DNA of 35,548 nt, from IMG/VR virus record IMGVR_UViG_646564533_000012. The stretch is one strand, 5' to 3'. The notes under the pieces are model-generated. The model saw nothing but the letters and a program-made list of their open reading frames with translations. It was not told the origin of the DNA and ran no database searches. Below, one piece after another: positions 1 to 27,068 of this stretch (positions are counted from its first letter, which is position 1; each line of letters starts with the position of its first letter). The position numbers and the translations under genes were made by a program. The stretch comes from a virus. Its lineage: Duplodnaviria; Heunggongvirae; Uroviricota; Caudoviricetes.

Positions 1-61
1 GGTATCCGTTCTGCTGAAGTGTCATGGCGTTGATTTTACGGTGACTCTTCGACAGTGAAAA

Positions 62-1570: not shown

Positions 1571-1619
1571 TCGTGAAACCCCAGCGTTACAAGACCACCA
1601 TGCCCCCAGCGTTCCATGA

Positions 1620-2024: not shown

Positions 2025-2303
2025 ATGGCAAAAGTCCTGAACACACACGAACAGGCAGACTTTGAGCGTTTAGCAGCGTTCTATCCCTACCGCGATGAGC
2101 ATGGGTTACCAGTACTTGAAGAAAGCCTGAAAGATTACGCAAAGCGTACCAACCAAGCTGTTAACACAGTGAAAAGACAGGCTGACAGAGGTTCAATTCC
2201 CATCAACCAGGATGAAAAGAACTCAAGACGCACAGTAAATCTCTTCGCTCTTTTCCTGAAAACAATCAGGAGCGCAGAAAAATACGTGCAGATGACAAAA
2301 TAA
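2025..2303 (+). CDS. Cox/Apl-position small DNA-binding protein (excisionase/regulator candidate)
   Basis: 92-aa first gene of the rightward early operon, divergent from C; assignment is positional, I do not see clear similarity to P2 Cox. Confidence 0.5.
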   Translation: MAKVLNTHEQADFERLAAFYPYRDEHGLPVLEESLKDYAKRTNQAVNTVKRQADRGSIPINQDEKNSRRTVNLFALFLKTIRSAEKYVQMTK

Positions 2304-2317
2304 CGAGGTGTCATTTT

Positions 2318-2656
2318 ATGCTGAAGCAACGCCGTAATTTTCGTACCGGAACAGAACGCCACGCTAACCGTTTCACTACCAGTGCATCACGCAGCAACAT
2401 CCGCTACAGCCTGAGTGATACACACGCAACGCCGGATGGCTACCCAGTAAAACAAATCGGCGAGCACGCCTGGCTGATTGAGAAAGCTGGAATCGTGATC
2501 CACAAATGCCCACGCAATCCGTTTACCGGAAACCGCATTTTTGCATTGAGCTGTGGCGACAATCAGTTCGGGCAGGATTTCACATTATACGAAGCACTTC
2601 GCACGGTTGATCGTCTGCTTCGCGGGCAGAGTTTTATTAAACAGGCTGATTTATAA
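2318..2656 (+). CDS. hypothetical early protein
   Basis: 112-aa ORF with GAGGTG upstream, co-oriented in the early operon. Confidence 0.5.
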   Translation: MLKQRRNFRTGTERHANRFTTSASRSNIRYSLSDTHATPDGYPVKQIGEHAWLIEKAGIVIHKCPRNPFTGNRIFALSCGDNQFGQDFTLYEALRTVDRLLRGQSFIKQADL

Positions 2657-5233: not shown

Positions 5234-5623
5234 ATGATTGACGCTCATGACTTCACAAGATGGGTGCGCACACAGGACACCCGTCTGGCTCCCGTTCTTC
5301 AGGGATTATTTGATCTCTACATCCGTGGTCGTGACAACAGAGCACACACCACAAAACCGGAAAATGCAGACACCCTTTATTTCACAGTAGACGACTGCTA
5401 CCGCGTGGACTTCACACCACACGGGCTGGCGTTGCATTGCCTGACACCACACGGAGAATCACTGCTGGCGTATTACGACTCCCCGGCCTCCGTATTTGCG
5501 GCAATGCTGGCGCATCGCACTGCTGGCGGGTGTGCCTCGCTGAGTGAATACACCGCTGAATTTAACCGCCTTTCTGCCCTCTTCTCGCAGGAGTGGCAGC
5601 GCGTGACGGGATACCAGCCATGA
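5234..5623 (+). CDS. hypothetical protein coupled to A
   Basis: 129-aa ORF whose stop overlaps the A start (ATGA). Confidence 0.55.
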   Translation: MIDAHDFTRWVRTQDTRLAPVLQGLFDLYIRGRDNRAHTTKPENADTLYFTVDDCYRVDFTPHGLALHCLTPHGESLLAYYDSPASVFAAMLAHRTAGGCASLSEYTAEFNRLSALFSQEWQRVTGYQP

Positions 5624-8460
5624 GTGAGTTTGCATGGAGCTGGAATGAACCACGGCCAGCCATTGATCCGGCCAGATTTACGGAGCACAGGCAGGAAACT
5701 GAAACCGACCTACAACGCGCCATCCGTTACTACCTTGAGGCAGACAAAAAGGCTCTGGAAGAACAGGAAGCGAAGGAGGAAGCCTTTTTCGCACAATCCA
5801 CCGTGGGTAAAAAACTCATGGCATCCCTTGAGGAAGCCGGACAGCGTGAAAAGCTGGCACAAAGCATCATCAGCAAGCGTCAGGCAACAGAACAAGACCC
5901 GGTGGCCCGTGCTTTTGCCACACTGAAGGTGCTTCCCGTTTATCTGCGTGAACCTCTGAGCCGCCACCTCTCTTTCCTGCGCAAAAAACAGGAAGCCGAT
6001 CGCCAGAAAGGCAAAAAGAGCTGGCAGGCTGAACGCTACGCGCGCGGAACCCTGCGCAAAATATTCGAACGCCTGGACCGCACCGATCACCGCTGGCTGA
6101 CACCGGGTTATCGCTCCCTTGCCGGACGCGAACGCCTGGACGATTTGCTTTACCTGCCGCAGCTCAACAAACACCAGATACAGACGCTGGCCACCATGAC
6201 GGCGGCGATGTTCAGCAGCACCTTCGAAAAACTCTGCGATGGCTTTGGTGCGACTGATGGCGAACTGACCATGGATGTAACGCTGAAGGCGTATCAGATG
6301 CTGGCCCGCATGGCGTTACACCTGCACGCCATGCCTCCACATTATGACGCACTGACAACAGACAAAGACCGGAGGAACGAACCGGACACGGAGCTGCTGC
6401 CGGGCGCAACCCTTCGCCTGACCTGTGCGGAATGGTGGAAACGCAAACTGTGGCTGTTACGTTGCGAGTGGAGAGAAGAACAACTCCGCGCCGCCTGTCT
6501 GGTTTCCAGAAAAACATCACCCTATCTGAGCCAGGACGCGTTAAGCGAGTTTCGCGCACAGCGCGAGAAAACACGCGATTTCCTGAAAAGTTTCATGCTG
6601 GAAAACGAAGACGGGTTCACGATTGATCTCGAGACAGTGTATTACGCGGGAGTAAGTAACCCGGTTCACCGTAAGGCAGAAATGATGGCCACCATGAAGG
6701 GGCTGGAACTTCTGGCCGAAGCCCGTGGCGACAAAGCGGTGTTTCTGACTGTCACCTGCCCGTCAAAATACCACGCCACAACAGAGAACGGTCATCCGAA
6801 TCCCAAATGGAACGGGGCCACCATGCGCGACTCCAGCGATTACCTGGTTAACACGTTTTTTGCGGCGGTCCGCAAGAAACTGAACCGCGACGGCCTGCGC
6901 TGGTATGGCATCCGCACAGTGGAGCCTCACCATGACGGCACCGTGCACTGGCATATGATGGTCTTTGCTCATCCGGAAGAAATCGACACCATTGTGTCCC
7001 ACACCCGCGATATTGCCATTCAGGAAGACCGCCACGAGCTGGGCAATGATATTACTCCGCGCTTTAAGGTGGAGTATGTCGACGGCTCAAAAGGCACGCC
7101 AACCAGCTACATCGCCACCTACATCGGAAAGAACCTGGACAGCCGCGCCGTGGATGGCATCGACCCGAAAACGGGCAAGCCACGCGTTGACCACGAAACC
7201 GGAAAATCAATGGCCGAGAGCGTGGAACGCGCCATCGGCTGGGCACGCCTTCACCGGGTCCGCCAGTTCCAGTTCTTTGGCATCCCCTCCCGTCAGGTAT
7301 GGCGTGAACTCCGCCGCCTTGCCAGCCAGATGGCACGCAACCCGGAAGGCCCACAACGGCTGAAGGATGATGCAATGGATGCGGTACTCGCTGCCGCTGA
7401 TGCCGGGTGTTTTGCCACCTACATTGAGAAACAGGGCGGCGTACTTGTTCCACGCAAAGACTACCTGATTCGCACCGCCTACGACCTCGCAGATGAGCTG
7501 AACGATTACGGCGAACAGAGCGTACAGATTTACGGGATCTGGTCACCACTCATCGGGGAATCCTCCCGTGTGTGCACGCACCCGGATAACTGGAAGCTGG
7601 TAAGACGTAAACCGGAAGCGGAAGACAGCACCCGCGAAAATGGTTTTGACCTTCAGGGCGGCCCTGCCGCCCCTTGGACTCGTGGCAATAACTGTCCCCG
7701 TGTACAGGAAACGGACAACAACGGGACAGAACAGCCGGAAGAACGGCCAGCACCGTGGCCGCAGCTCCCTGACGGCGTTGATGTGGATGAATGGATGCGC
7801 TCACTGAAACGGCACGAACGCCGGGCGCTGATGCGTTCGCTTCGTGACAAACAGGCAAAAAACAGCAGTGATGAAATGCAGAGCTGGACACAGAGCCGCA
7901 AACAGCAGCGGCCTTTGCCTGATAACCACGAATTACTCGCTAAAGAATGGCGGGAGTCTGCTGAATCTCTCGGCCTGCATATCGGTGAACAACAGATGCA
8001 GCACCTGTTACGGGGCGGCAGTCTGTACGTTGACGGCAGCATCATTGCACCGCAGGGATTTGAAATTGTACGCAAACCGGATACCCGCCCGGACAGCCGA
8101 ATCACGCAGCTCTGGCAGCGCCTGAGCCGTAATCATGGCGTAAGCAGCACGGAGATCCGCCATAACCCGGTCGCCAGCTATCTGACACAGCTGGAGGCAT
8201 CAGACCCTGAAGCCGCCGCACGCCTGGCATCCACACTTCAGCAGGACCAGAACACCATGAAAACACCCGTTACCGTGCTTTCTGACATGCTGCGCGCCAT
8301 CCGCGACGCAGAGCACGCACAGAGAATCAGTGAAACCACTGAACGCGCCCGCCGCAAAGCAGACCTGCTGCGGGGTGGCCTGACCAGTGGAAACAAAAAA
8401 CAGACAGAAACGGGACTCACGAATCCCGCAAATGAGCAAAAAACGCGCAGCGATATATGA
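5620..8460 (+). CDS. A: replication initiation endonuclease A (rolling-circle, HUH superfamily)
   Basis: Track ORF trimmed to MSEFAWSW; HUH-type motif HWHMMVF and paired catalytic tyrosines in TPTSYIATYIGK; about 946 aa with a long low-complexity C-terminal extension. Confidence 0.93.
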   Translation: MSEFAWSWNEPRPAIDPARFTEHRQETETDLQRAIRYYLEADKKALEEQEAKEEAFFAQSTVGKKLMASLEEAGQREKLAQSIISKRQATEQDPVARAFATLKVLPVYLREPLSRHLSFLRKKQEADRQKGKKSWQAERYARGTLRKIFERLDRTDHRWLTPGYRSLAGRERLDDLLYLPQLNKHQIQTLATMTAAMFSSTFEKLCDGFGATDGELTMDVTLKAYQMLARMALHLHAMPPHYDALTTDKDRRNEPDTELLPGATLRLTCAEWWKRKLWLLRCEWREEQLRAACLVSRKTSPYLSQDALSEFRAQREKTRDFLKSFMLENEDGFTIDLETVYYAGVSNPVHRKAEMMATMKGLELLAEARGDKAVFLTVTCPSKYHATTENGHPNPKWNGATMRDSSDYLVNTFFAAVRKKLNRDGLRWYGIRTVEPHHDGTVHWHMMVFAHPEEIDTIVSHTRDIAIQEDRHELGNDITPRFKVEYVDGSKGTPTSYIATYIGKNLDSRAVDGIDPKTGKPRVDHETGKSMAESVERAIGWARLHRVRQFQFFGIPSRQVWRELRRLASQMARNPEGPQRLKDDAMDAVLAAADAGCFATYIEKQGGVLVPRKDYLIRTAYDLADELNDYGEQSVQIYGIWSPLIGESSRVCTHPDNWKLVRRKPEAEDSTRENGFDLQGGPAAPWTRGNNCPRVQETDNNGTEQPEERPAPWPQLPDGVDVDEWMRSLKRHERRALMRSLRDKQAKNSSDEMQSWTQSRKQQRPLPDNHELLAKEWRESAESLGLHIGEQQMQHLLRGGSLYVDGSIIAPQGFEIVRKPDTRPDSRITQLWQRLSRNHGVSSTEIRHNPVASYLTQLEASDPEAAARLASTLQQDQNTMKTPVTVLSDMLRAIRDAEHAQRISETTERARRKADLLRGGLTSGNKKQTETGLTNPANEQKTRSDI

Positions 8461-8536: not shown

Positions 8537-9496
8537 ATGAAAATTTGTATCGACGACGGCTCCACCAACATCAAGCTGGCATGGACTGAGAACGGCGAAC
8601 GCCGCAACGCCATCAGCCCGAACAGCTTCAAGTCGGAATGGTCTGCGCCGTTCGGTGGCACGCAGCCCGCGAACTACATGCTTGATGGCGTGCGCTATGG
8701 TTTTGATCCGGTCAGCGATCGCTTTGTCCAGACGACCGACACGCAATACCAATACAGCGATGTGAATGTCATTGCCATTCATCACGCGCTGGTCAAATCA
8801 GGCATCACACCACAGGAGGTGGATGTGGTTGTCACCCTGCCACTGAGCGAGTATTTCGACACAAACGCACAGCCGGACATGGCCAACATCAACCGCAAAA
8901 AAGCGAACGTTATGCGCCCGGTGGAGTACCAGAACGGCGAAGCATTCACTATCCGTAACGTGCGGGTTATGCCTGAATCCATTCCGGCTGGCTTTAAGGC
9001 ACTGGCTGACATGAGTCCGTTTGAATCCCTGCTGATTGTGGATTTGGGCGGAACCACGCTGGATGTGGCAAAGGTTCAGGGGCAACTGGCAGGTATCAGC
9101 CAGGTGTTTTGCGATCCACACGTAGGCGTTTCTCTGATGGCCGATGCCGTACTGTCGGTGATGGCCACTAACGGTATGCGCACCAGTCACCACATCGCCA
9201 ATACCATTATCGAACATCGCCATGATGAAGCCTGGCTGCGCCAGCACATCCACAATGACGCGCATTACGACAGCCTGATGGCGGTTATTCGTGAAAAGGA
9301 AGAAACACTGAAACAACGAGTGATCCGCGCGCTGGCGGGTTTTTCGGGTTACGGGCGGGTGATGGTTGTCGGTGGCGGGGCGGAGATTGTGGCACCCGCT
9401 ATCCGCGAAGCCTGCGGAGTTAATGCGACTTTCATCGCGGACGGGGTGCCACAGTTTGCTCTGGTTAATGGGCTGTACGCAATGGACAAGGAGTAA
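8537..9496 (+). CDS. parM: ParM/StbA-like actin-type segregation ATPase
   Basis: N-terminus MKICIDDGSTNIKLAW matches the plasmid R1 ParM phosphate-1 motif; similarity continues (SPNSF, YSDVNV, HHAL, LIVDLGGTT); 319 aa. Confidence 0.88.
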   Translation: MKICIDDGSTNIKLAWTENGERRNAISPNSFKSEWSAPFGGTQPANYMLDGVRYGFDPVSDRFVQTTDTQYQYSDVNVIAIHHALVKSGITPQEVDVVVTLPLSEYFDTNAQPDMANINRKKANVMRPVEYQNGEAFTIRNVRVMPESIPAGFKALADMSPFESLLIVDLGGTTLDVAKVQGQLAGISQVFCDPHVGVSLMADAVLSVMATNGMRTSHHIANTIIEHRHDEAWLRQHIHNDAHYDSLMAVIREKEETLKQRVIRALAGFSGYGRVMVVGGGAEIVAPAIREACGVNATFIADGVPQFALVNGLYAMDKE

Positions 9497-9500
9497 ACCA

Positions 9501-9812
9501 ATGACGACACCAACCAGACGGATAAGTTTCTATCTGAAGCCCGCCGCCGTCAAGAACGAAGGCGAAGCATGCACCTGGCTGGACAGCCTTACACCAGAAG
9601 CCCGCAAAAGCGGCCAACGTGTGGCTTTTCTGGCCGGGCTGGCACTTCTGAAAATGAATCCGGCAGAGGCTTACCGACTGGCTGCATGGGCTGACGATGA
9701 GGCGTTATCAGTGACACAAACCAGGACAGAACGCCCCGCGTCACAGCCAGTACCAACCTCACAGATAACCAGTCGGATGGCCGGAAATATCAGGGCGTTA
9801 TTTCCCGAATAA
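9501..9812 (+). CDS. parR: ParR/StbB-like centromere-binding adaptor
   Basis: Track ORF trimmed to the Met behind AAGGAG (MTTPTRRISFYLKP...); ISFYLKP, WLDSL, AFLAGLAL and NIRALFPE align with R1 ParR; immediately downstream of parM. Confidence 0.78.
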   Translation: MTTPTRRISFYLKPAAVKNEGEACTWLDSLTPEARKSGQRVAFLAGLALLKMNPAEAYRLAAWADDEALSVTQTRTERPASQPVPTSQITSRMAGNIRALFPE

Positions 9813-10208: not shown

Positions 10209-10543
10209 ACAGAAAACAAAAACAAGAGTTGAAATACTTTTTACGTAAAGAAATTGCCAGGCTTGAAGATGCAGAATCACAATCATCAGAAATTCCGTTC
10301 GGAATGGATATCAACGACGCCCGTATGCTCCAGGCATACCGCATAGCTCAGGCTGCACTACAGGCAAAACCGTCAGATGGACTGGTTAGAGCAGTACGAT
10401 TCTATGAACTGGTAAAGCGTGAGAATCCGCCAGCCGAAACCGGAGCATGGAAAGACGCTGTTGACTGGGTACTCAAAGAGGCTTGTCAGGTTGTAAACAC
10501 TGGCATCAAAGGAGACCTAGCCCAGCCTGCATCAAAGCTATAG
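10205..10543 (+). CDS. hypothetical protein coupled to the ZBD gene
   Basis: 112-aa ORF with ATGA overlap to the upstream gene. Confidence 0.5.
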
Positions 10544-10552
10544 AAATGAGCC

Positions 10553-10580
10553 AAAACGCCCTCTTCCAGGGCGTTTATTT
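10553..10580 (+). terminator. rho-independent terminator of the accessory operon
   Basis: AAACGCCCT-CTTCC-AGGGCGTTT hairpin followed by a T-rich run. Confidence 0.5.
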
Positions 10581-10583
10581 CAA

Positions 10584-11034
10584 TGCACAATAGTGCACAA
10601 ATTTGCACAATTTTTTTGAACGACTTTTTGCCCTTCCGGCCCGCGTGGCGGCTGGATCCGTCAAGGATCCGTGCGTGCACAAAAAAACGCGCTTTTTCTG
10701 CGCGCAGGTGACGGGGGAACAGCCCGCGTTTCAGGGGGTAAATAGCATCCCCTGAACGATGTCGCAGCAACACAACAGAATGGCTGTATTTCTCACGCTG
10801 AGCGTGAAAAAAACGTGAGGGCTTTTGATTTGATGGGGTGAAAGGTAAGGCCGTCAAAATCGCACTGAGGCGGCGAGAACATGCAGTTAACGCGGTGGGA
10901 TTGCGTAAGAGTCTGACCGTCGATGATGGCAATAAGCAGGAAAGCGTCGTGAAATTATCTGACTGATACAGGAGCTGGAGAGTCGGGGCATAAATTTTTT
11001 ATGCCCCGGCGAAGCAGCAGACAAGCGAAGCGCG
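10584..11034. other. putative cos / packaging-recognition region
   Basis: About 450-bp non-coding gap in the position of P2 cos, upstream of Q; TGCACAA x3 at 10-bp phasing (10584, 10594, 10604) plus a fourth copy near 10676; GC-rich GCGTGGCGG and GAGGCGGCG segments resemble 186/P2 cohesive ends; exact cos not assignable. Confidence 0.35.
10984..11009. terminator. strong hairpin just downstream of Q
   Basis: GGGGCATAAA-TTT-TTTATGCCCC, about 25 bp past the Q stop; coordinates approx. Confidence 0.3.
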
Positions 11035-12081
11035 TCAGGATGTGGGCTGGGTGTCCAGCAGTGCATAAGGGTTAAAGCGGATCACCTCTTCGCCAAGCCA
11101 GTCATTGATGTGCTTCATGGCCTCCATGACGGGCATCAGCTCGTTAATTGCGTAAACCCGCGCGGCCTTCTCCACATCACCAAACGCACTTTTTTCACCC
11201 GGCATCGCCCCCATCAGTTGCGGCGGGACACGGTGCGCAGCCAGCACATCATCACGGGATGCCGCCTTAACATTCATGAACTCATCCTTTGCGGTGATCT
11301 GCTGGAACGGCAAAATTTGCACCCCCTCTTTGCCCCCGTTGGGCGCATGAATGAGCACGTTTTTAAACGCACCACCACCACGTGCACCCTGTAACGTTTC
11401 TTTCAGGGAGTCCATGCTTTCGCGGTTTACCTGCGCTGCACCGATGTAGATGATGCACCCGGCGTGGGATCCGTTGTCGTAATACAGTTTTCTGAACATG
11501 TCCGCCGAATGAGACAGGCTGGCCGAGAGTAATGCGCCGAGATATTCCGGCATGCCGTAAATTTCCTGGTTAATGTCCGGATTCATCAGGTGGCACACTT
11601 TGCCAGGGCGAAACTGGAACGCGTCCTTGCCATCCTGCACATACCACCATGATTCAAGATCGCTTCCGCGTCGCATGTATTTCGCCAGTGCGTGCCGTAA
11701 TTTAAGCGGTTCGCAGAGCATATTGCTTCGAAGCTCAAGGAATGCGTTACCGAACACAAACCAGTCCAGCGCCAGCGCCGAGAAATCCTGCCGGGAAAGC
11801 AGCGGGTGCGGAATATAGCAACCGAGCAATACATTCCGCTTAAAGTAAAGCGCAGACTGATGCCAGGACGTTTGCCGGGCAGCTCTTGCCAGACCGTACC
11901 AGTCCACCGGGGTTTCATACCACCGCCCGTTATCAGCACAGTACATATTGTCCAGCAGGTCATGCCCGGTCAGGCGATAAGGACCATCAAATGTGAATGC
12001 ACTGAGCGATGATTCTTTCCTGAGCGCATCAGCGAGATCAATGCGTGAACTCATGCGCACTTTTTTATTTTTTCTGCTCAT
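11035..12081 (-). CDS. Q: portal protein Q
   Basis: 348 aa, position and size match P2 gpQ; stop/start overlap with P. Confidence 0.9.
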   Translation of the reverse strand: MSRKNKKVRMSSRIDLADALRKESSLSAFTFDGPYRLTGHDLLDNMYCADNGRWYETPVDWYGLARAARQTSWHQSALYFKRNVLLGCYIPHPLLSRQDFSALALDWFVFGNAFLELRSNMLCEPLKLRHALAKYMRRGSDLESWWYVQDGKDAFQFRPGKVCHLMNPDINQEIYGMPEYLGALLSASLSHSADMFRKLYYDNGSHAGCIIYIGAAQVNRESMDSLKETLQGARGGGAFKNVLIHAPNGGKEGVQILPFQQITAKDEFMNVKAASRDDVLAAHRVPPQLMGAMPGEKSAFGDVEKAARVYAINELMPVMEAMKHINDWLGEEVIRFNPYALLDTQPTS

Positions 12082-16745: not shown

Positions 16746-16847
16746 CGACTGACCCCGTCAGCGGGCGGCGTGCGCGGTGTTCCGGTTTGACTCCGTGACC
16801 GTTTACACCGCGCACCCACCGCCCGATTTTTTTCAGGAGTGAACCCC

Positions 16848-17342
16848 ATGAGTATGGTTGCCAGAACTGAACCCAGACCCGCAGAGGACGACATCACCGA
16901 TACCGATGATGGCGATACCCGCATTTCAGCGGGTGCATTCTGGCCGGATATTGTGCTGCGCGAGCTGCGTCTGGCGGTACGACTGCCGGGCCGCGTGACC
17001 ACCTCCCGCCTGCTGCATACTGCCACCGGGGCTGTGGCACACGTTACCCGCGAGCTGGAAGCATGGCAGCAGGAACAGCAGGCAGCTGGCCATCAGACGC
17101 TGGCCGATGTTCCGGCACCCGTAATTAACGGAGAAAGCGTCAATATCTGGCACTGGCGCAATGCTGTTTATACCGCCACGCGCGCCCTGATTCTGGAGCG
17201 TTATCGTGATGCAGACACAACGGACAAGGGCGACCGCCGGGCGGACGCTCTGGATATACAGACATCGGATTTGTGGCGTGATGTGAGCTGGGCCATCTCT
17301 GACATTCTGTGCCGCCCGCGAATCTTTGCGGAGTTGTGCTGA
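16848..17342 (+). CDS. L: capsid completion protein L
   Basis: Track ORF trimmed to the ATG behind CAGGAG; ERYRD and WAISDI..PR.F.EL align with P2 gpL. Confidence 0.88.
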   Translation: MSMVARTEPRPAEDDITDTDDGDTRISAGAFWPDIVLRELRLAVRLPGRVTTSRLLHTATGAVAHVTRELEAWQQEQQAAGHQTLADVPAPVINGESVNIWHWRNAVYTATRALILERYRDADTTDKGDRRADALDIQTSDLWRDVSWAISDILCRPRIFAELC

Positions 17343-17542
17343 TGAAAGTGAAGGCACTGGAAGGCGACACCGTGGATTCGCTCTGTTTCCGGTACTACGG
17401 CACGACGCAGGGCGTCACCGAAAAGGTGCTGGATGCCAACCCCGGACTCTGTCAGCAGGTATTTCTGGACGCCGGGCAGGAAGTTGAGATGCCGGAGCCG
17501 GAGAAGAAGAAACGAGAAATGATTCAGTTGTGGGGGAAGTAG
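17342..17542 (+). CDS. X: tail protein X
   Basis: 66 aa MKVKALEGDTVDSLCFRYYGTTQGV...ANPGL matches P2 gpX; ATGA overlap with L. Confidence 0.85.
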   Translation: MKVKALEGDTVDSLCFRYYGTTQGVTEKVLDANPGLCQQVFLDAGQEVEMPEPEKKKREMIQLWGK

Positions 17543-17544
17543 CA

Positions 17545-17868
17545 GTGAGCACCATTCAAACAGGGATCACAGAGCAGGTTATTGCGTGGCTCTTTGACCA
17601 CCTGCCAACGGTGTATGCAGTAGGCGCGGCGGTCAGTATTTCCGCGCTGATGAGTCTTTATGACGGACGAACACTGGTTCAGACCGTAACGGGATCGCTG
17701 GCGTGCGGCGTTCTTGCCATGGCCGTGGCCGGGTCGTTGCGCTTCTTCGGGTTTTCTGAAGATGCCGTGACGTTTATCGGCGCATCAATCGGTTTTATGG
17801 GTGCAGAGAAAGCACGCGACAAGGTTATTGCGGCCTTTAATCGCAGGGTGAAGGAGAAGGACGAATGA
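17545..17868 (+). CDS. Y: putative holin
   Basis: GTG start behind GGGGGAAG; about 107 aa with hydrophobic helices; sits in the P2 gene Y position before the endolysin. Confidence 0.55.
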   Translation: MSTIQTGITEQVIAWLFDHLPTVYAVGAAVSISALMSLYDGRTLVQTVTGSLACGVLAMAVAGSLRFFGFSEDAVTFIGASIGFMGAEKARDKVIAAFNRRVKEKDE

Positions 17869-18257
17869 GCAACACATTTAAATTCAGCAGCCGGAGCGAA
17901 AAGAATTTGCAGGGCGTAAATCCTGATCTGGTGAAAGTGACCCGACGGGCACTGGAAATCTCGGAAGTGGATTTTGGTATCACCGAAGGGTTGCGCAGCC
18001 GTTACCGCCAGAAGCAACTGGTGGCCACGGGTAAGAGCCAGACCATGAACAGCCGCCACCTTACGGGGCATGCCGTGGATGTTGTGGCTTATATCGGCAG
18101 CCAGGTGTCATGGGAATGGCCGCTGTACGAAAAAATCGCAGCAGCATTCAGACAGGCCAGCCGGGAACTGAATATTCCGGTGGAATGGGGCGGCGACTGG
18201 AAGACCCTGAAAGACGGACCGCATTTTCAGTTACCACACGGAGCCTATCCGGCATGA
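17865..18257 (+). CDS. endolysin, M15-family peptidase type (L-alanyl-D-glutamate peptidase-like)
   Basis: 130 aa with SRHLTGHAVD zinc-ligand motif typical of VanY/M15 peptidases; in the P2 K position. Confidence 0.8.
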   Translation: MSNTFKFSSRSEKNLQGVNPDLVKVTRRALEISEVDFGITEGLRSRYRQKQLVATGKSQTMNSRHLTGHAVDVVAYIGSQVSWEWPLYEKIAAAFRQASRELNIPVEWGGDWKTLKDGPHFQLPHGAYPA

Positions 18258-18661
18258 AGCTCTGGCCCACGCTGGGCGTCGCTTTCCTTCTGATTGCCGC
18301 ATGGGGAACATCCATGCGTCTGTCGTGGTCGCTGGGCCGGGAGAACGCCAGAAACGAAGCGCAGGCCAGCACCCTGAAAAGTACCGTCGACACCCTGAAT
18401 ATCATCAGCACCGGGGTACAGGATATGCAGCAGGTGCTGGCGCAACTCCGCGTGGAAAATCAACAGAGAAATCAGGACGGAGAGGCCAGACGTGAACAGC
18501 TACGCAACGATATTGCAAAAGATGAATGCGCCCACGCTTTGCCTGACGCTCGTTTTACTGACAGGTTGCGCAGGCACGCAGAACGCGCCACTGCCAGCGC
18601 CGTCAGTCCGGCTTATACCGCAGACGCTGACCATACCGGTAATGCCTCCTCCCTTCCCTGA
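18254..18661 (+). CDS. lysB: LysB / Rz-like inner-membrane spanin
   Basis: Track ORF trimmed to MKLWPTLGVAFLLIAAW (N-terminal TM) followed by a Q/R-rich helical region; ATGA overlap with the endolysin. Confidence 0.7.
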   Translation: MKLWPTLGVAFLLIAAWGTSMRLSWSLGRENARNEAQASTLKSTVDTLNIISTGVQDMQQVLAQLRVENQQRNQDGEARREQLRNDIAKDECAHALPDARFTDRLRRHAERATASAVSPAYTADADHTGNASSLP

Positions 18662-18812
18662 CACTCCCACATGGGGAAATCTCGGTATATGGGGCGACCG
18701 CCTTCTGGATGCACTGGAAACCTGTAACGCGGATAAACGGGCCATTGAATTACTGGAACAGCGCAGGCTGCAACGACTGAACAACGAGGATAACAACCAT
18801 GCTGAAAACTGA
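18522..18812 (+). CDS. lysC: LysC / Rz1-like outer-membrane lipoprotein spanin
   Basis: Embedded out of frame in the 3' end of lysB; MNAPTLCLTLVLLTGCAG lipobox signal; proline-rich. Confidence 0.7.
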   Translation: MNAPTLCLTLVLLTGCAGTQNAPLPAPSVRLIPQTLTIPVMPPPFPDTPTWGNLGIWGDRLLDALETCNADKRAIELLEQRRLQRLNNEDNNHAEN

Positions 18813-19266
18813 TTCCCTGCGTGAAGCCATGACCCGTTCATGCCGATGGTGTCAGGCTAACCCGGAAAAATTCACCATTTTCGTGGAGAGCGGCAACATT
18901 GAAACGACCGGAGAAACGCCCTCGTTTGTTTACCGCTATCAGATGGTGATGTTTGTCATGGATTACGCCGGGGAGCTGGACGACCTCACGCTGCCGCTGC
19001 TGGCGTGGTTATCCGAAAATCAGCCACAGTTGTTGCTCAACCCTGAGCGTAATCAGGACATCAAATTCTCCGCCGTTATCAATGACGATGACAGCGCCGA
19101 TCTCCTGTTTACGCTCCCCCTGCGGGAACGCGTTCGCATCACGCGCAGCAGTCAGGGCACACCGCAGGCAGAACACCTGCCGGAGCCAAAACCCCGCCTG
19201 CCATCTTCCGAAGGCGACTGGTCACATGTATTCCAGGATGTGACGTGGGGTGAAAGCGATGGATAA
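18799..19266 (+). CDS. R: tail completion protein R
   Basis: 155 aa, same size and position as P2 gpR. Confidence 0.82.
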   Translation: MLKTDSLREAMTRSCRWCQANPEKFTIFVESGNIETTGETPSFVYRYQMVMFVMDYAGELDDLTLPLLAWLSENQPQLLLNPERNQDIKFSAVINDDDSADLLFTLPLRERVRITRSSQGTPQAEHLPEPKPRLPSSEGDWSHVFQDVTWGESDG

Positions 19267-22320: not shown

Positions 22321-23672
22321 CAGTGAAATACTACGCCATTCTGACTAATCAGGGCGCGGCACGACTGGCTAACGCGACGATGCTCGGCAGTAAGCTGAAT
22401 CTGACGCAAATGGCCGTTGGTGATGCAAATGGTGTGTTACCAACACCAGACCCTGCACAAACAAAACTGATTAACCAGAAACGCATTGCACCGCTGAATC
22501 TTCTGAGTGTTGACCCTAACAATCAGAGCCAGATTATTGCGGAGCAAATCATCCCTGAAAACGAGGGAGGATTCTGGATCCGTGAGATTGGTCTTTATGA
22601 TGATGAAGGTGTACTCATTGCGGTGGCAAACTGCCCGGAAACGTACAAACCGCAGTTGCAGGAAGGCAGTGGACGCACCCAGACTATCCGCATGATTCTG
22701 GTTGTCACGAACACCGAAGCCATCACGCTGAAAATCGACCCGTCTGTGGTTCTGGCAACCCGCAAATATGTGGATGACAAAATCTCAGAGCACGAACAGT
22801 CACGACGTCACCCGGACGCCTCGCTGACCGCAAAAGGTTTTACTCAGTTAAGCAGTGCAATTAACAGTGAATCAGAAACACTGGCCGCAACACCGAAAGC
22901 GGTTAAGGCTGCATATGACCTGGCTAACGCGAAATATACTGCCCAGAACGCCACCACAACACAAAAAGGGATTGTTCAGCTCAGTAGCGCCACGAACAGC
23001 ACGTCTGAAACGCTGGCAGCGACACCAAAAGCTGTTAAGGTGGTAATGGATGAAACGAACAAGAAAGCACCATTAAACAGCCCGGCACTGACCGGAACGC
23101 CAACAACACCAACAGCGCCACAGGGGACTAATAATACCCAGATCGCAAGCACAGCTTTCGTTATGGCCGCGATTGCCGCACTTGTAGATTCGTCACCTGA
23201 TGCACTGAACACGCTGAACGAACTGGCTGCGGCGCTGGGCAATGACCCGAATTTTGCGACCACCATGACTAACGCGCTTGCGGGTAAGCAACCGAAGGAT
23301 GCCACCCTGACGGCGCTGGCGGAGCTTGCTACATCAGCAGATAAACTCCCATATTTTACAGGGGCAGATCGTGCCGCGTTAACCGCGTTGACAAGTGTTG
23401 GACGTGCCATTCTTGGTAAAACCAGCACTCAGGGCGTTCTTGATTACCTTGGTTTGGGGGAAGGCTCTGCGCTGCCCGTTGGTGTGCCCGTTCCATGGCC
23501 CTCAGCCACGCTGCCAACGGGGTGGCTGAAATGTAACGGCGCAGCATTTTCTTCTGAAATGTACCCCAATCTGGCAAAGGCCTACCCCACCAATAAATTA
23601 CCGGATTTACGGGGAGAATTTATTCGTGGCTGGGATGATGGACGCGGTGTGGACATGGGAGAGCATTATTAA
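22317..23672 (+). CDS. H: tail fiber protein H (constant N-terminal part fused to a frameshift-truncated C-terminal cassette)
   Basis: Conserved N-terminus MTVKYYAILTNQGAARLANA; internal SETLAATPKAVK repeats; enters the shared cassette block GLGEGSALPVGVPVPWP at 23451, then terminates early (…GVDMGEHY). Confidence 0.88.
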   Translation: MTVKYYAILTNQGAARLANATMLGSKLNLTQMAVGDANGVLPTPDPAQTKLINQKRIAPLNLLSVDPNNQSQIIAEQIIPENEGGFWIREIGLYDDEGVLIAVANCPETYKPQLQEGSGRTQTIRMILVVTNTEAITLKIDPSVVLATRKYVDDKISEHEQSRRHPDASLTAKGFTQLSSAINSESETLAATPKAVKAAYDLANAKYTAQNATTTQKGIVQLSSATNSTSETLAATPKAVKVVMDETNKKAPLNSPALTGTPTTPTAPQGTNNTQIASTAFVMAAIAALVDSSPDALNTLNELAAALGNDPNFATTMTNALAGKQPKDATLTALAELATSADKLPYFTGADRAALTALTSVGRAILGKTSTQGVLDYLGLGEGSALPVGVPVPWPSATLPTGWLKCNGAAFSSEMYPNLAKAYPTNKLPDLRGEFIRGWDDGRGVDMGEHY

Positions 23673-23881
23673 GCAGCCAAGAGGCTACAAATTTTTCTCA
23701 GCGTGCCGGAAATATAGGCGATGGTGCGGGCCACGCAATTAATTTTCATGATGGCATAGTCGGAAATCAGCCAGGATTTTCACGATTTAATTTCACCAGT
23801 AACTCTGTAGGCGATGGTATAAATTTTGTTGCTGTCAGGCCGCGAAATATCGCATTTAATTACATCGTAAGGGCAGCATGA
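23673..23881 (+). pseudogene. out-of-frame remainder of the H-attached tail-fiber cassette (type E copy)
   Basis: Downstream sequence encodes the rest of the cassette (…IAFNYIVRAA) in another frame; matches the intact inverted copy at 25969..26400 except for one A missing in GACAATGGG. Confidence 0.6.
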
Positions 23882-23888
23882 AAACGTT

Positions 23889-24395
23889 GGTTTGGGGGAA
23901 GGCTCGGCGCTGCCCGTTGGTGTGCCCGTTCCATGGCCTTCAGCCACGCCGCCAACGGGGTGGCTGAAATGTAACGGTGCAGCATTTTCTTCTGAAATGT
24001 ACCCCAATCTGGCAAAGGCCTACCCCGCCAATAAATTACCGGATTTACGGGGAGAATTTATTCGCGGCTGGGATGATGGGCGCGGGGTGGATGCTGGCCG
24101 CGCTTTGCTTAATTGGCAGCCACACACAATTTTGGATCATGCACACTATATGGAATTATGGACCGGGGATGGACTTGCCGCGGGAAGTACACGGGAAGGA
24201 GTAAACCCTGGAATACTGGCTACATACGGGGACGGGGGAATAGTTAAAACAGACGAACCCGGTTTAAAGGTGCCTTCCTCACTACGAGCCATTAGCTCTC
24301 GTAATGTAAAACGGTTTGGTGAAATTAGTGGAAATGTAGGTACAGAAACTCGCCCTCGCAACGTTGCATTTAATTACATCGTAAGAGCCGCATGA
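23889..24395 (+). CDS. alternative tail-fiber C-terminal cassette B (promoterless in this orientation)
   Basis: Begins with the shared block GLGEGSALPVGVPVPWPSATPPTGWLKCNGAAF, unique middle, shared C-terminus ETRPRN.AFNYIVRAA. Confidence 0.7.
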   Translation, partial: GLGEGSALPVGVPVPWPSATPPTGWLKCNGAAFSSEMYPNLAKAYPANKLPDLRGEFIRGWDDGRGVDAGRALLNWQPHTILDHAHYMELWTGDGLAAGSTREGVNPGILATYGDGGIVKTDEPGLKVPSSLRAISSRNVKRFGEISGNVGTETRPRNVAFNYIVRAA

Positions 24396-24402
24396 AAACG
24401 TT

Positions 24403-24882
24403 GGTTTAGGAGAAGGTTCTGCACTGCCCGTTGGTGTGCCCGTTCCGTGGCCCTTAGCAACACCACCAACGGGCTGGCTGAAATGTAACGGTGCAGCATT
24501 TTCTTCTGAAATGTACCCCAAACTGGCAAAAGCCTACCCCACCAATAAATTACCAGACTTACGCGGTGAATTTATCCGTGGCTGGGATGATGGGCGAGGA
24601 ATTGATGCGGCACGCGCTTTATTGAGCATTCAAAACGGGATGTTGGAAAAACACCGCCATATTGTTGTAGCTAACGATGGATATGACACAAAAGATGAAT
24701 GGGAGTTGGCTACGATTTTCAAAAAAACATATACACAAGGCAGGGGGCTTGATGCCACAAATACAGGAGGGAGTTTGATTCCATCACCAACGCTTCATTC
24801 ACGAGGAAGTATTGGTAACACAGGTGGTAGTGAAACCCGCCCCCGCAATATTGCATTTAACTATATCGTGAGGGCGGCTTAG
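24403..24882 (+). CDS. alternative tail-fiber C-terminal cassette C
   Basis: Same shared N-terminal block and C-terminal tail with a distinct, AT-richer variable middle. Confidence 0.7.
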   Translation, partial: GLGEGSALPVGVPVPWPLATPPTGWLKCNGAAFSSEMYPKLAKAYPTNKLPDLRGEFIRGWDDGRGIDAARALLSIQNGMLEKHRHIVVANDGYDTKDEWELATIFKKTYTQGRGLDATNTGGSLIPSPTLHSRGSIGNTGGSETRPRNIAFNYIVRAA

Positions 24883-24888
24883 TTATAT

Positions 24889-25500
24889 TCAACTGGCTGC
24901 TGCCAGTGGTATTTCCGGCAAGTTGATATCTGGTGCCATGTTTATATCCATTGCGTTCAGCGCGTCTATATAATCCAGCACGGCATTAAGCCGGGTGGTT
25001 TCTGCCTGCGTCAACTTCCGCCCGGCCTGCAACTTCAACTGAATCAGACTTATGGAAGCCATTGCCGCATCAGCCAGTGACTGGCGCTTGGTTTCTGCCG
25101 CTTCTACTGCGGCACGATGTTGTGCCTCAGTATCTGTCACCCATTTTTCACCATCCCATTTATCGTATGGTGTGAACGGGGCGATAGTGGTTGTATTTTT
25201 CGGGTAGTCACCCAGCGCCGTGATTTCTTCGGTGTTTCCCGTGTCAGTGCTATAGACGGTTTCACCACGATGGTCTGGCGCATACTCCCATGAACTTAAA
25301 TTCTCCGAACGGCGGATAGCATAGCCCGCTTTATGTGCGCCCGGGGCATCTAAACAGGAATTTGCCGGAATACCGACACCCACAGCAAGATATTCAGTTG
25401 ATTCGGAAATATATTCCCGTGTCTCACCATCATAGTTATAAACGACGATGTTTCCTGCCTGTACGGCAATAAGGTCATCATTTAATATCGCGTTATTCAT
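24889..25500 (-). CDS. tail fiber assembly chaperone (Tfa / gpG-like)
   Basis: 203 aa, convergent with cassettes B and C and directly downstream of cassette D on the minus strand; typical Tfa-type sequence. Confidence 0.8.
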   Translation of the reverse strand: MNNAILNDDLIAVQAGNIVVYNYDGETREYISESTEYLAVGVGIPANSCLDAPGAHKAGYAIRRSENLSSWEYAPDHRGETVYSTDTGNTEEITALGDYPKNTTTIAPFTPYDKWDGEKWVTDTEAQHRAAVEAAETKRQSLADAAMASISLIQLKLQAGRKLTQAETTRLNAVLDYIDALNAMDINMAPDINLPEIPLAAAS

Positions 25501-25958
25501 TATGCGGTTCTCACAATATAATTGAAGGCAATATTGCGTGGGCGGGCTTCATTCCCCCCTGAGGATTCCGTTCTGTATTGACTGGTAAATCTACCGTTAA
25601 TTGCACCTTGCCGGACGGCGTTATCTGTCGACAACAGACTATCCCCTCCTTTGTCATTTGGCACCAGTACCGTGTTATCCCACGCGTCCCATGACCGAAT
25701 ATTATGATAATGACTTCCTGTTAACCACCCCTGCATGCTTAAGATGCCCCTTCCGGCATCCACCCCGCGCCCATCATCCCAGCCACGGATAAATTCACCG
25801 CGTAAGTCTGGTAATTTATTGGTGGGGTAAGCCATTGCCAGTCTGGGATACATTTCAGAAGAAAATGCTGCGCCGTTACATTTCAGCCACCCCGTTGGCG
25901 GCGTGGCTGAGGGCCATGGAACAGGTACACCAACAGGCAGTGCAGAGCCTTCCCCCAA
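25500..25958 (-). CDS. alternative tail-fiber C-terminal cassette D
   Basis: Shared N-terminal block on the minus strand, unique middle, shared C-terminus; stop overlaps the tfa start. Confidence 0.7.
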   Translation of the reverse strand: MGEGSALPVGVPVPWPSATPPTGWLKCNGAAFSSEMYPRLAMAYPTNKLPDLRGEFIRGWDDGRGVDAGRGILSMQGWLTGSHYHNIRSWDAWDNTVLVPNDKGGDSLLSTDNAVRQGAINGRFTSQYRTESSGGNEARPRNIAFNYIVRTA

Positions 25959-25968
25959 ACCAACGTTT

Positions 25969-26454
25969 TCATGCTGCCCTTACGATGTAATTAAATGCGA
26001 TATTTCGCGGCCTGACAGCAACAAAATTTATACCATCGCCTACAGAGTTACTGGTGAAATTAAATCGTGAAAATCCTGGCTGATTTCCGACTATGCCATC
26101 ATGAAAATTAATTGCGTGGCCCGCACCATCGCCTATATTTCCGGCACGCTGAGAAAAATTTGTAGCCTCTTGGCTGCTTAATAATGCTCTCCCATTGTCC
26201 ACACCACGTCCATCATCCCAGCCACGAATAAATTCGCCCCGTAAATCCGGTAATTTATTGGTGGGGTAGGCCTTTGCCAGATTGGGGTACATTTCAGAAG
26301 AAAATGCTGCGCCGTTACATTTCAGCCACCCCGTTGGCAGCGTGGCTGAGGGCCATGGAACGGGCACACCAACGGGCAGCGCAGAGCCTTCCCCCAAACC
26401 AACGTTTTCGTCTTTATCCCTACCTATACCAACTATGTATTTTTCACGAAACAA
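25969..26454 (-). CDS. alternative tail-fiber C-terminal cassette E (intact copy of the cassette fused to H)
   Basis: Shared block starts at 26400; the track ORF extends upstream to 26454 (MFREKYIVGIGRDKDENV); sequence equals the H-attached cassette apart from the 1-nt indel. Confidence 0.7.
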   Translation of the reverse strand: MFREKYIVGIGRDKDENVGLGEGSALPVGVPVPWPSATLPTGWLKCNGAAFSSEMYPNLAKAYPTNKLPDLRGEFIRGWDDGRGVDNGRALLSSQEATNFSQRAGNIGDGAGHAINFHDGIVGNQPGFSRFNFTSNSVGDGINFVAVRPRNIAFNYIVRAA

Positions 26455-26468
26455 AGAGGATGTTTTTT

Positions 26469-27068
26469 ATGCAAATTGGCTATATTCGTGTGTCAACAAA
26501 TGACCAGAACACGGATTTACAACGCAATGCACTGAACTGCGCAGGATGTGAACTGATTTTTGAAGATAAAATCAGCGGAACGAAATCAGCCAGACCGGGA
26601 TTGAAAAAACTGCTCAGAACGCTATCAGAAGGAGATACGCTGGTTGTCTGGAAGCTGGACAGACTGGGCAGAAGTATGAAACACCTGATCACGCTTATTG
26701 AGGAATTGCGGGAAAAAGGTGTTAATTTCCGTAGTCTGACGGACAGCATTGACACATCAACACCCATGGGGCGTTTCTTTTTTCACGTCATGGGGGCTTT
26801 AGCCGAAATGGAACGTGAATTAATTGTAGAGCGTACACTGGCCGGGCTGGCAGCAGCACGCGCACAAGGACGCATTGGCGGACGTCGCCCGAAGTTGACA
26901 AAAGAACAACACGAGCAAATAGCGAGGCTGATTAAAAACGGTCATGACAGGAAACAACTGGCGATCATTTACGACATCGGCATATCGACGATTTATCGTT
27001 ATCACCCTGTAGGCGATATACAGGCTGAAGAAACAACCAGGCAGACTCAGGAAAATGAAAACCGCTAA
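26469..27068 (+). CDS. serine recombinase DNA invertase (Hin/Gin/Cin/Pin family)
   Basis: MQIGYIRVSTNDQNTDLQRNAL...VVWKLDRLGRSMKHLI...MGRFFFHVMGALAEMERELI is near-identical in pattern to Hin/Gin; start behind AGAGGA. Confidence 0.92.
   Translation: MQIGYIRVSTNDQNTDLQRNALNCAGCELIFEDKISGTKSARPGLKKLLRTLSEGDTLVVWKLDRLGRSMKHLITLIEELREKGVNFRSLTDSIDTSTPMGRFFFHVMGALAEMERELIVERTLAGLAAARAQGRIGGRRPKLTKEQHEQIARLIKNGHDRKQLAIIYDIGISTIYRYHPVGDIQAEETTRQTQENENR

What the first reader, a model, noticed from the sequence alone, without database searches (positions are those of the whole stretch)
17865..18257. Endolysin is an M15 peptidase type, with no lysA-like gene
The lysis cassette keeps the P2 order (X, holin, endolysin, lysB/lysC) but the endolysin carries the SxHxxGxAxD zinc-ligand motif of VanY/M15 peptidases, not a lysozyme fold. 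No lysA-like gene is seen between the endolysin and lysB. This is module exchange within a conserved cassette.
Basis: partly seen in the sequence, partly recalled or inferred. Interest (0 to 1): 0.22.

Follow-up and report, generated by a model that had tools for sequence, protein, structure and literature searches.

The report
Known M15 peptidase endolysin, P88-like phage

Summary
Confirmed, and ordinary. Window 17865-18257 (+) is a 130-aa ORF. It carries SRHLTGHAVD (aa 63-72) and D117-x-x-H120. It matches Pfam Peptidase_M15_4 (46 bits, cut-off 25) and PHROG endolysin family 465 (5e-77). It is 62-63% identical over its full length to solved L-Ala-D-Glu endopeptidases: Serratia ChiX (5OPZ), 23RI and,'s printed alignment, LysECD7 (8Q2G). 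It sits in the P2 gene order: X, holin, endolysin, lysB/lysC, R. The endolysin stop overlaps the lysB start, and P2 LysA has no match anywhere in the window.

- Compared with P2, the holin (lambda S family, not P2 Y family) and LysB are also unrelated in sequence, not only the endolysin.
- The enzyme belongs to the M15C L-Ala-D-Glu peptidase group, not to the VanY D,D-carboxypeptidases.
- Direct proof of an endolysin-only swap comes from sister phages such as Citrobacter phage Shae_phiSM. Their flanks are about 96% identical, but they carry a GH108 glycosidase in the same slot.

The window is a P88-like Xuanwuvirus. P88's GenBank record already says "endolysin, Peptidase M15". RefSeq labels the gene "M15 family metallopeptidase", and the cassette is found in about 1,000 of 5,426 complete E. 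coli genomes. Novelty: already known. Interest: low.

The parts
17342..17542 (+). Tail protein X (P2 gpX homologue), the gene just upstream of the lysis cassette
   Evidence: PF05489 Phage_tail_X, E=8e-21. 48% identical to P2 X.
17545..17868 (+). Holin, 107 aa, GTG start with GGGGGAAG upstream. It belongs to the lambda S family (three hydrophobic segments), not the P2 Y family. An in-frame GTG at 17530 lies inside X and has no Shine-Dalgarno sequence. No Met-Lys-Met type dual start is present.
   Evidence: PF05106 Phage_holin_3_1, 69.8 bits against a cut-off of 23.8. phrog_126 holin/anti-holin, 1e-34. No blastp hit to P2 Y, which is PF04550. Same coordinates as in the P88 and RefSeq annotations. 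Hydrophobic windows.
17865..18257 (+). Endolysin: a single-domain 130-aa M15C/LAS zinc peptidase, predicted L-alanyl-D-glutamate endopeptidase. It has no signal peptide or SAR segment. Its start overlaps the holin stop (ATGA).
   Evidence: 62% identical to ChiX and 63% to 23RI. 100% identical to the protein of Escherichia phage 503458. Maximum Kyte-Doolittle 19-residue window is 0.54.
18051..18080 (+). SRHLTGHAVD motif (aa 63-72). H65 and D72 are the first two zinc ligands.
   Evidence: Regex hit. These residues align with ChiX H68/D75. H65 and D72 are invariant in 74 homologues.
18213..18224 (+). D117-G-P-H120: catalytic acid/base (equivalent to ChiX D120) and third zinc ligand (equivalent to ChiX H123).
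   Evidence: Alignment to 5OPZ. Residue roles from PMC5778951. Invariant in 74 of 74 homologues.
18254..18661 (+). LysB-position gene: Rz-like inner-membrane spanin, 135 aa, with an N-terminal membrane anchor. Its start overlaps the endolysin stop.
   Evidence: phrog_214 Rz-like spanin, 1.4e-40. Weak DUF2570 match. No blastp similarity to P2 LysB.
18492..18812 (+). LysC: Rz1-like outer-membrane lipoprotein spanin with lipobox LLTG|C. It lies in the +1 frame, starts inside lysB and ends inside R, as in P2. The start is uncertain: GTG 18492 has GGAGAGG 6 nt upstream, ATG 18522 is an alternative, and RefSeq uses 18543.
   Evidence: PF23793 LysC, 47.7 bits against a cut-off of 27. phrog_3001 and phrog_456. 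RefSeq lysC. Sequence.
18799..19266 (+). Tail completion protein R, the gene just downstream of the cassette.
   Evidence: PF06891 P2_Phage_GpR, 4.6e-40. 40% identical to P2 R.
17845..18280 (+). The segment that differs from the GH108-carrying sister phages. It covers the last ~8 codons of the holin, the whole endolysin and the first ~8 codons of lysB. This is the exchanged module.
   Evidence: Three-way DNA alignment of the window, P88 and Shae_phiSM. Two-piece 96.5% match covering 71% of the query.

Best explanation
The gene encodes the endolysin of a P88-like (Xuanwuvirus, Peduoviridae) temperate phage of E. coli. It is a small, soluble, single-domain zinc metallopeptidase of the LAS / MEROPS M15C type.

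Proposed mechanism:
- Zinc is held by H65, D72 and H120.
- D117 acts as the acid/base and R44 helps bind substrate.
- By analogy with ChiX and the T5 endolysin, the enzyme cuts the L-Ala-D-Glu bond of the peptidoglycan stem peptide.
- It has no export signal, so it should accumulate in the cytoplasm during late gene expression.
- It should reach the wall only when the adjacent lambda-S-type holin forms holes in the inner membrane.
- The LysB/LysC spanin pair would then disrupt the outer membrane.

The cassette occupies the P2 position, between X and R in the late capsid/tail operon, but it is a non-orthologous replacement of P2's Y-K-lysA set. The endolysin slot is itself exchangeable, because sister prophages carry a GH108 glycosidase there.

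Shown here: family membership, intact catalytic residues, gene order, absence of lysA, the swap junctions, and the distribution. Inferred: bond specificity, zinc dependence, holin dependence and lysis timing.
For: Family: Pfam PF13539 at 46 bits against a cut-off of 25; phrog_465 at 5e-77; PDB 23RI, 5OPZ and 8Q2G at E=2e-48 to 3e-46, with 62% (5OPZ) and 63% (23RI) identity over residues 5-130.

Residues: R44, H65, D72, D117 and H120 map onto ChiX R47, H68, D75, D120 and H123. The ChiX D120A variant is inactive, and ChiX was shown to be an L-Ala-D-Glu endopeptidase on E. coli sacculi (PMC5778951). All five residues are invariant in 74 homologues of 28-99% identity.

Export: no hydrophobic segment in the endolysin.

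Neighbours: lambda-S-family holin, Rz-like and Rz1-like spanins, X and R.

Absence of lysA: ATGA overlap at 18254-18257; no P2 LysA, K or Y hit in the window.

Exchange: the GH108 variant sits in otherwise ~96% identical DNA. The M15 version covers at least 80% of the query in 1,007 E. coli genomes, the GH108 version in 32.

Mobility of the module: a 77% identical copy lies in a Mu-like prophage of Mixta; a 75% identical copy lies in a P2-like Enterobacter prophage that has a different (DUF2514) spanin; P2-Y-type holins sit next to M15 endolysins in Burkholderia and Achromobacter loci.

Against: There is no biochemical or genetic test of this exact protein. Pfam's name for PF13539 is 'D-alanyl-D-alanine carboxypeptidase', so the bond specificity rests on homology to ChiX, LysECD7 and T5. 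No NCBIfam equivalog model matches. No structure was predicted here, so the fold is inferred from 62-63% identity to crystal structures. How lysis timing is set without lysA or a dual-start holin is unknown.
Confidence: 0.93

Rival explanations
1. The protein is a VanY-like D-Ala-D-Ala carboxypeptidase that trims stem peptides, as the Pfam family name and the first reader's 'VanY' label suggest, rather than an L-Ala-D-Glu endopeptidase.
For: Pfam PF13539 is described as 'D-alanyl-D-alanine carboxypeptidase'. The SxHxxGxAxD motif is shared with VanY (established knowledge).
Against: The closest solved and characterised relatives, at 62-63% identity, are L-Ala-D-Glu endopeptidases. ChiX was shown to be one on sacculi, the T5 endolysin is one, and LysECD7 is predicted to be one. 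A carboxypeptidase that only trims terminal D-Ala would not break the sacculus, yet the gene occupies the only endolysin slot of a phage that lyses its host.
Confidence: 0.04
2. The holin, M15 peptidase and spanin set works as a non-lytic, ChiWXYZ-like (type 10) protein-release device for the lysogen rather than as the phage lysis cassette.
For: The composition is the same as Serratia chiWXYZ: a lambda-S-family holin, a peptidase 62% identical to ChiX, and spanin homologues.
Against: The genes lie inside the late virion operon, between tail gene X and tail gene R of a complete P2-like phage. The Serratia authors stressed that chiWXYZ is not in a prophage and sits beside its cargo genes. P88, with the same cassette, makes plaques. 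No cargo gene is adjacent.
Confidence: 0.02
3. The gene is a decaying remnant in a cryptic prophage and no longer encodes an active enzyme.
For: About 20% of E. coli genomes carry the cassette, and many prophages are defective.
Against: The ORF is full length. All five catalytic or ligand residues are intact and invariant across the family. The protein is 100% identical to that of phage 503458 and lies in DNA 98-99% identical to isolated phages. The overlapping start/stop coupling with the holin and lysB is preserved.
Confidence: 0.01

Closest known systems
Endolysin of Escherichia phage P88 and other Xuanwuvirus phages (PhiR44_2, 520873, 503458, 500465-2, P884B11, Chuche); RefSeq WP_000072327.1 'M15 family metallopeptidase'
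   Same: It is the same gene. The cassette DNA (X to lysC) is 97.8-99.0% identical, the protein is 100% identical in phage 503458, and the neighbours and overlaps are the same.
   Different: Nothing of substance. The window differs from P88 elsewhere (first ~2.3 kb, and beyond ~23.4 kb).
Serratia marcescens ChiX (PDB 5OPZ) of the chiWXYZ chitinase-secretion operon
   Same: 62% identical over 126 residues. Same zinc triad, catalytic Asp and Arg. Same partners: a lambda-S-family holin and spanin homologues. No signal peptide.
   Different: ChiX is chromosomal, not in a prophage, and serves non-lytic secretion of chitinases. Here the gene sits in a virion late operon and serves lysis.
LysECD7 (PDB 8Q2G), PDB 23RI, and phage T5 L-alanyl-D-glutamate peptidase (PDB 2MXZ/8P3A): M15C endolysins of virulent phages
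   Same: Single-domain enzymes of about 130 aa with the same motifs. 63% identical to 23RI, and a comparable match to LysECD7 (E=2.7e-46). More distant from T5 (E=9e-23; T5-like phage endolysins in the tblastn survey are about 38% identical).
   Different: They are carried by unrelated phage backbones. The T5 enzyme is calcium-activated (abstract of PMC10487532, listed); whether this one is was not examined.
Phage P2 lysis cassette Y-K-lysA-lysB-lysC
   Same: Same position between X and R. Same order: holin, endolysin, spanins. lysC is in the same Pfam family, starts inside lysB in the +1 frame and ends inside R.
   Different: P2 Y is PF04550, whereas the holin here is PF05106. P2 K is a lambda-R-type lysozyme (1AM7), whereas the enzyme here is an M15 peptidase. 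lysA is absent. LysB shows no detectable sequence similarity.
GH108 endolysin variant of the same cassette (Citrobacter phage Shae_phiSM and 32 E. coli genomes)
   Same: The flanking X, holin, LysB and R are 90-100% identical in protein. The slot and the coupling to lysB are the same.
   Different: That endolysin is a 181-aa GH108 glycosidase with a PG_binding_3 domain, preceded by a 54-nt spacer instead of an overlap with the holin.
P2-like Burkholderia phages (KS5, KS14, KL3, ST79)
   Same: These are P2-like backbones whose holin, endolysin and antiholin are unrelated to those of P2. ST79's endolysin is reported as a peptidase M15A. This is published precedent for lysis-module replacement in P2-like phages.
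   Different: Their endolysins are larger (266-269 aa, with PG_binding_1), and they have a separate putative antiholin gene upstream of the holin. No such gene is present here.

Membership tests
LAS / MEROPS M15 zinc peptidases (subfamily M15C, L-Ala-D-Glu peptidases) | Zinc-ligand triad: His and Asp in an H-x6-D segment, plus a C-terminal His | tested here: met
   H65, D72 and H120 are present and align with ChiX H68, D75 and H123. They are invariant in 74 of 74 homologues.
LAS / MEROPS M15 zinc peptidases (subfamily M15C, L-Ala-D-Glu peptidases) | Catalytic acidic residue close to the last His (ChiX D120, Ply500 D130) | tested here: met
   D117 lies three residues before H120 and aligns with ChiX D120, whose D120A variant is inactive. 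Invariant.
LAS / MEROPS M15 zinc peptidases (subfamily M15C, L-Ala-D-Glu peptidases) | Profile match above the curated threshold | tested here: met
   PF13539 at 46.0 bits against a cut-off of 25. phrog_465 at 5e-77.
LAS / MEROPS M15 zinc peptidases (subfamily M15C, L-Ala-D-Glu peptidases) | LAS fold | tested here: met
   Tested by sequence only: full-length 62-63% identity to the crystal structures 5OPZ and 23RI, and E=2.7e-46 to 8Q2G. No model was built.
LAS / MEROPS M15 zinc peptidases (subfamily M15C, L-Ala-D-Glu peptidases) | Cleavage of the L-Ala-D-Glu bond; zinc dependence | not testable with these tools
   Needs a muropeptide assay. Inferred from ChiX.
Canonical (holin-dependent, soluble) endolysin | No signal peptide or signal-anchor-release segment | tested here: met
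   Maximum 19-residue Kyte-Doolittle hydropathy is 0.54, and the N-terminus MSNTFKFSSRSEKN is polar.
Canonical (holin-dependent, soluble) endolysin | Adjacent holin and spanin genes within a phage late operon | tested here: met
   Holin 17545-17868, spanins 18254-18812, flanked by X and R.
P2-type lysis cassette (Y, K, lysA, lysB, lysC) | Position and order between X and R | tested here: met
P2-type lysis cassette (Y, K, lysA, lysB, lysC) | Y-family holin (PF04550) | tested here: not met
   The holin here is PF05106, P2 Y is PF04550, and there is no blastp hit between them.
P2-type lysis cassette (Y, K, lysA, lysB, lysC) | K: lambda-R-type lysozyme/transglycosylase | tested here: not met
   P2 K matches 1AM7 at 5e-44. 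No similarity to K anywhere in the window.
P2-type lysis cassette (Y, K, lysA, lysB, lysC) | lysA (four-TM putative antiholin) between the endolysin and lysB | tested here: not met
   ATGA overlap of the endolysin and lysB. Best tblastn E-value is 1.9.
P2-type lysis cassette (Y, K, lysA, lysB, lysC) | LysB homologue | tested here: inconclusive
   No blastp hit to P2 LysB, but the functional class is the same: phrog_214 Rz-like spanin with an N-terminal anchor.
P2-type lysis cassette (Y, K, lysA, lysB, lysC) | LysC lipoprotein that starts inside lysB (+1 frame) and ends inside R | tested here: met
   PF23793 at 47.7 bits against a cut-off of 27. Coordinates 18492-18812, compared with lysB ending at 18661 and R starting at 18799.
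ChiWXYZ-type holin/peptidase secretion system | Lambda-S-family holin, ChiX-like M15 peptidase and spanin homologues | tested here: met
ChiWXYZ-type holin/peptidase secretion system | Chromosomal locus outside any prophage, linked to cargo genes | tested here: not met
   The genes are embedded in P2-like capsid and tail genes, and the window is a whole P88-like phage.

The most novel reading that the evidence does not exclude
The endolysin slot of P88-like prophages may be a defined recombination site. Its junctions lie in the last ~8 codons of the holin and the first ~8 codons of lysB. At this site, wall hydrolases with different bond specificity (M15 peptidase in ~1,007 E. coli genomes, GH108 glycosidase in 32) would be swapped under selection from host wall chemistry or inhibitors. 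This phage group would also time lysis with no antiholin at all, having neither lysA nor a dual-start holin.
Probability: 0.15. Interest if true: 0.3.

Novelty: already known. Interest (0 to 1): 0.07.

Why it matters
It matters little beyond correct annotation. The result confirms a textbook point: phage lysis cassettes are mosaics in which holin, endolysin and spanin genes are replaced independently while position and order are kept. It also gives a clean natural example, M15 peptidase against GH108 glycosidase in otherwise ~96% identical prophages. That pair could serve as an isogenic system for asking whether endolysin bond specificity affects lysis timing or host range. The enzyme is a close relative of M15C endolysins that are being developed as antibacterials (LysECD7).

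Tried and rejected
- NCBIfam gave no model for the endolysin, and only a sub-threshold lambda-holin hit for the holin (53.3 bits against 55.05).
- A PDB search with the holin found nothing meaningful.
- P2 Y, K, LysA and LysB were searched against the whole window by tblastn, in case they lay elsewhere. Nothing scored better than E=0.9.
- A dual-start antiholin form of the holin was considered. The only upstream in-frame start (GTG 17530) lies inside X, has no Shine-Dalgarno sequence, and would add MGEVA (net negative charge), unlike lambda S107. Rejected as unsupported.
- The 130-aa ORF on the opposite strand (17679-18071) was treated as a shadow of the holin and endolysin genes. No annotation in any related record supports it.
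- The 14-bp attP of P88 is not in the window.
- PADLOC found no defence genes in the accessory slots tested.
- Structure prediction and the large protein-database searches were deliberately not run, because 62-63% identity to crystal structures already settles the fold.

Full report
**What is there.** Window 17865-18257 (+) is an ATG-to-TGA ORF of 130 aa with GGAGAAGG just upstream. Its start overlaps the stop of the preceding gene (ATGA at 17865-17868). Its stop overlaps the start of the next gene (ATGA at 18254-18257). The protein contains SRHLTGHAVD at residues 63-72 (nt 18051-18080), the only match to S.H..G.A.D, and D117-G-P-H120 near the C-terminus.

**Family assignment.**
- Pfam assigns the protein to Peptidase_M15_4 (PF13539, E=8.1e-12, 46 bits against a curated cut-off of 25).
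- PHROGs assigns it to endolysin family 465 (E=5.1e-77).
- Against solved structures, it matches 23RI ('Peptidase M15C domain-containing protein', E=2.1e-48), Serratia marcescens ChiX 5OPZ (2.5e-48) and 8Q2G (2.7e-46) over its full length. It matches the phage T5 L-alanyl-D-glutamate peptidase 2MXZ at 8.8e-23 and Listeria Ply500 2VO9 at 3.6e-07.
- Identity is 62% to ChiX and 63% to 23RI. 8Q2G is the endolysin LysECD7.
- No lysozyme family matches.

**Active site.** The ChiX paper (PMC5778951) reports zinc coordinated by His68, Asp75 and His123. It names Asp120 as the essential acid/base, because the D120A variant is inactive in vitro and in vivo. It implicates Arg47 in substrate binding. It also shows that ChiX is an L-Ala-D-Glu endopeptidase on E. 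coli sacculi. In the alignment these residues correspond to H65, D72, H120, D117 and R44 of the window protein, and all are present. I extracted 74 homologues (28-99% identity) from genomes of many bacterial groups. All five positions are invariant in them, as is W112. The protein has no hydrophobic segment (maximum 19-residue Kyte-Doolittle value 0.54). It is therefore a soluble, holin-dependent endolysin, not a signal-anchor-release type. That last step is an inference.

**Surroundings.** Family profiles identify the neighbours:

| Gene | Coordinates | Evidence |
|---|---|---|
| Head completion L | 16839-17342 | PF05926 |
| Tail protein X | 17342-17542 | PF05489 |
| Holin | 17545-17868 | PF05106 Phage_holin_3_1 (lambda S family); phrog_126 |
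| Rz-like inner-membrane spanin | 18254-18661 | phrog_214, 1.4e-40 |
| Rz1-like lipoprotein LysC | 18492-18812 | PF23793; lipobox LLTGC |
| Tail completion R | 18799-19266 | PF06891 |

LysC starts inside the spanin gene in the +1 frame and ends inside R. This is the P2 order. P2's own region was fetched for comparison: L, X, Y, K, lysA, lysB, lysC, R, S.

**No lysA.** There is no intergenic space between the endolysin and lysB. tblastn of P2 LysA against all 35.5 kb gives nothing better than E=1.9. X is followed directly by the holin, so there is also no Burkholderia-style antiholin gene upstream (compare). The holin has no Met-Lys-Met type dual start.

**How far the cassette is really 'P2'.**
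- The flanking morphogenesis proteins are clear P2 homologues: L 36%, X 48%, R 40%, S 26% identity.
- Inside the cassette, only LysC shares a family with P2 (PF23793 for both; blastp E=0.003).
- The holin has no similarity to P2 Y, which is in a different Pfam family (PF04550).
- LysB has no blastp similarity to P2 LysB.
- P2 K is a lambda-R-type lysozyme (1AM7/3D3D, E=4e-44) and is unrelated to the M15 protein.

So synteny is conserved, but holin, endolysin and inner-membrane spanin are all non-orthologous to those of P2.

**Direct evidence for an endolysin-only exchange.** The lysis region (X to lysC) is 97.8-99.0% identical to the P88-like Xuanwuvirus phages PhiR44_2, 520873, 503458, P88, 500465-2, P884B11 and Chuche. 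One relative, Citrobacter phage Shae_phiSM, matches in two pieces (96.5% identity, 71% coverage). Its X, holin, LysB and R proteins are 97, 90, 92 and 100% identical to those of the window. Between holin and lysB it carries a 181-aa GH108 + PG_binding_3 glycosidase. In the three-way DNA alignment, identity breaks down about 8 codons before the holin stop (~17845) and resumes about 8 codons into lysB (~18280).

Among 5,426 complete E. coli genomes:
- 1,099 contain the cassette.
- 1,007 cover at least 80% of the M15 version.
- 32 cover at least 80% of the GH108 version.

**The module travels.** tblastn finds relatives in 1,326 phage records. They include Yersinia phage PY100 (64%), large T4-like phages (61-63%) and T5-like phages (~38%). 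Of 77 genomic loci encoding relatives, only four share the L-X-holin context.
- A 77% identical copy sits in a Mu-like prophage of Mixta tenebrionis (GemA, Mor, DUF1804).
- An Enterobacter soli P2-like prophage has the same L-X-holin-M15 arrangement, but with a DUF2514-type spanin.
- Burkholderia lata and Achromobacter piechaudii loci pair an M15 endolysin with a P2-Y-like holin.

Each gene of the cassette therefore behaves as an independently exchangeable unit. This is the established picture of lysis-cassette mosaicism, and it was already described for P2-like Burkholderia phages (PMC3091744; ST79 peptidase M15A endolysin).

**Is it known?** Yes.
- The P88 GenBank record (KP063541) annotates the orthologue as 'endolysin; Peptidase M15'.
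- RefSeq/PGAP annotates it as 'M15 family metallopeptidase' between 'phage holin family protein' and 'DUF2570 domain-containing protein'/'LysC'.
- The P88 paper notes that the P88 lysin is phylogenetically distinct from those of other P2-like phages. [quoted passage not shown] This is functional evidence that the cassette lyses cells.

**Comparison with ChiWXYZ.** The composition is the same as the Serratia chitinase-secretion operon: a lambda-S-family holin, a ChiX-like peptidase and spanins (PMC4259817). That operon is chromosomal, lies outside any prophage and sits beside its cargo genes. Here the genes are inside the virion late operon of a complete phage. The window cassette works like the phage ancestor of such systems and is not a member of them.

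**Verdict.** The feature is already known and annotated, so interest is low. The only mildly open points are how lysis timing is set without lysA or a dual-start holin, and whether the 97:3 M15/GH108 polymorphism has any selective meaning.

Noticed in passing
window 8537-9812 (+): A plasmid-type partition pair lies inside this integrase-bearing P2-like phage. It consists of ParM/StbA actin-like ATPase (8537-9496; PF06406 at 2e-82 plus PF21523 at 1e-68) and a Plasmid_stab_B (ParR/StbB-like) protein (within 9366-9812; PF10784 at 1e-23). The pair sits in the accessory slot between replication gene A (5593-8460) and the portal gene (11035-12081, -). No PADLOC defence hits there.
   Followed up: partly
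window 23440-27068: A multi-inversion tail-fibre switch. Large inverted repeats (443 nt at 95%, 210 nt at 99%, 227 nt at 93% and others) flank alternative Collar-domain fibre C-termini on both strands (23892-24395 +, 24436-24882 +, 25500-25958 -, 25969-26454 -). A Caudo_TAP assembly gene lies at 24889-25500 (-). A serine recombinase (Resolvase + HTH_7, within 26274-27068 +) lies next to them. This resembles the Gin/Cin/Min inversion systems.
   Followed up: partly
window 1-2340 and beyond ~23400: These parts do not match P88 or PhiR44_2 at megablast level, and the 14-bp attP of P88 (GCCACCCGAAGGTG) is absent. The integrase (596-1720, -) and attachment site are therefore probably of a different type from those of P88.
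   Followed up: no
window 18492-18543 (lysC start): The LysC start codon is ambiguous. GTG 18492 has a good GGAGAGG Shine-Dalgarno sequence 6 nt upstream and gives a 25-residue lipoprotein signal peptide. ATG 18522 gives 15 residues. RefSeq places the start at the equivalent of 18543 (a CTG), leaving only 8 residues before the lipobox Cys, which looks too short.
   Followed up: partly
L007 2067-4321 (Mixta tenebrionis) and L010 1969-4384 (Enterobacter soli): A 77% identical M15 endolysin lies in a Mu-like prophage, after GemA and Mor. A 75% identical one lies in a P2-like prophage whose spanin is of the unrelated DUF2514 type. In L010, L012 and L016 the endolysin (71-75%) is more conserved than its neighbours X (52-58%), holin (56-57%) and R (36-38%).
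   Followed up: partly
window 10486-10932 (-) and 34142-34807 (+): Two ORFs of 147 and 221 aa have no Pfam or PADLOC match. They lie in accessory regions of the phage.
   Followed up: no
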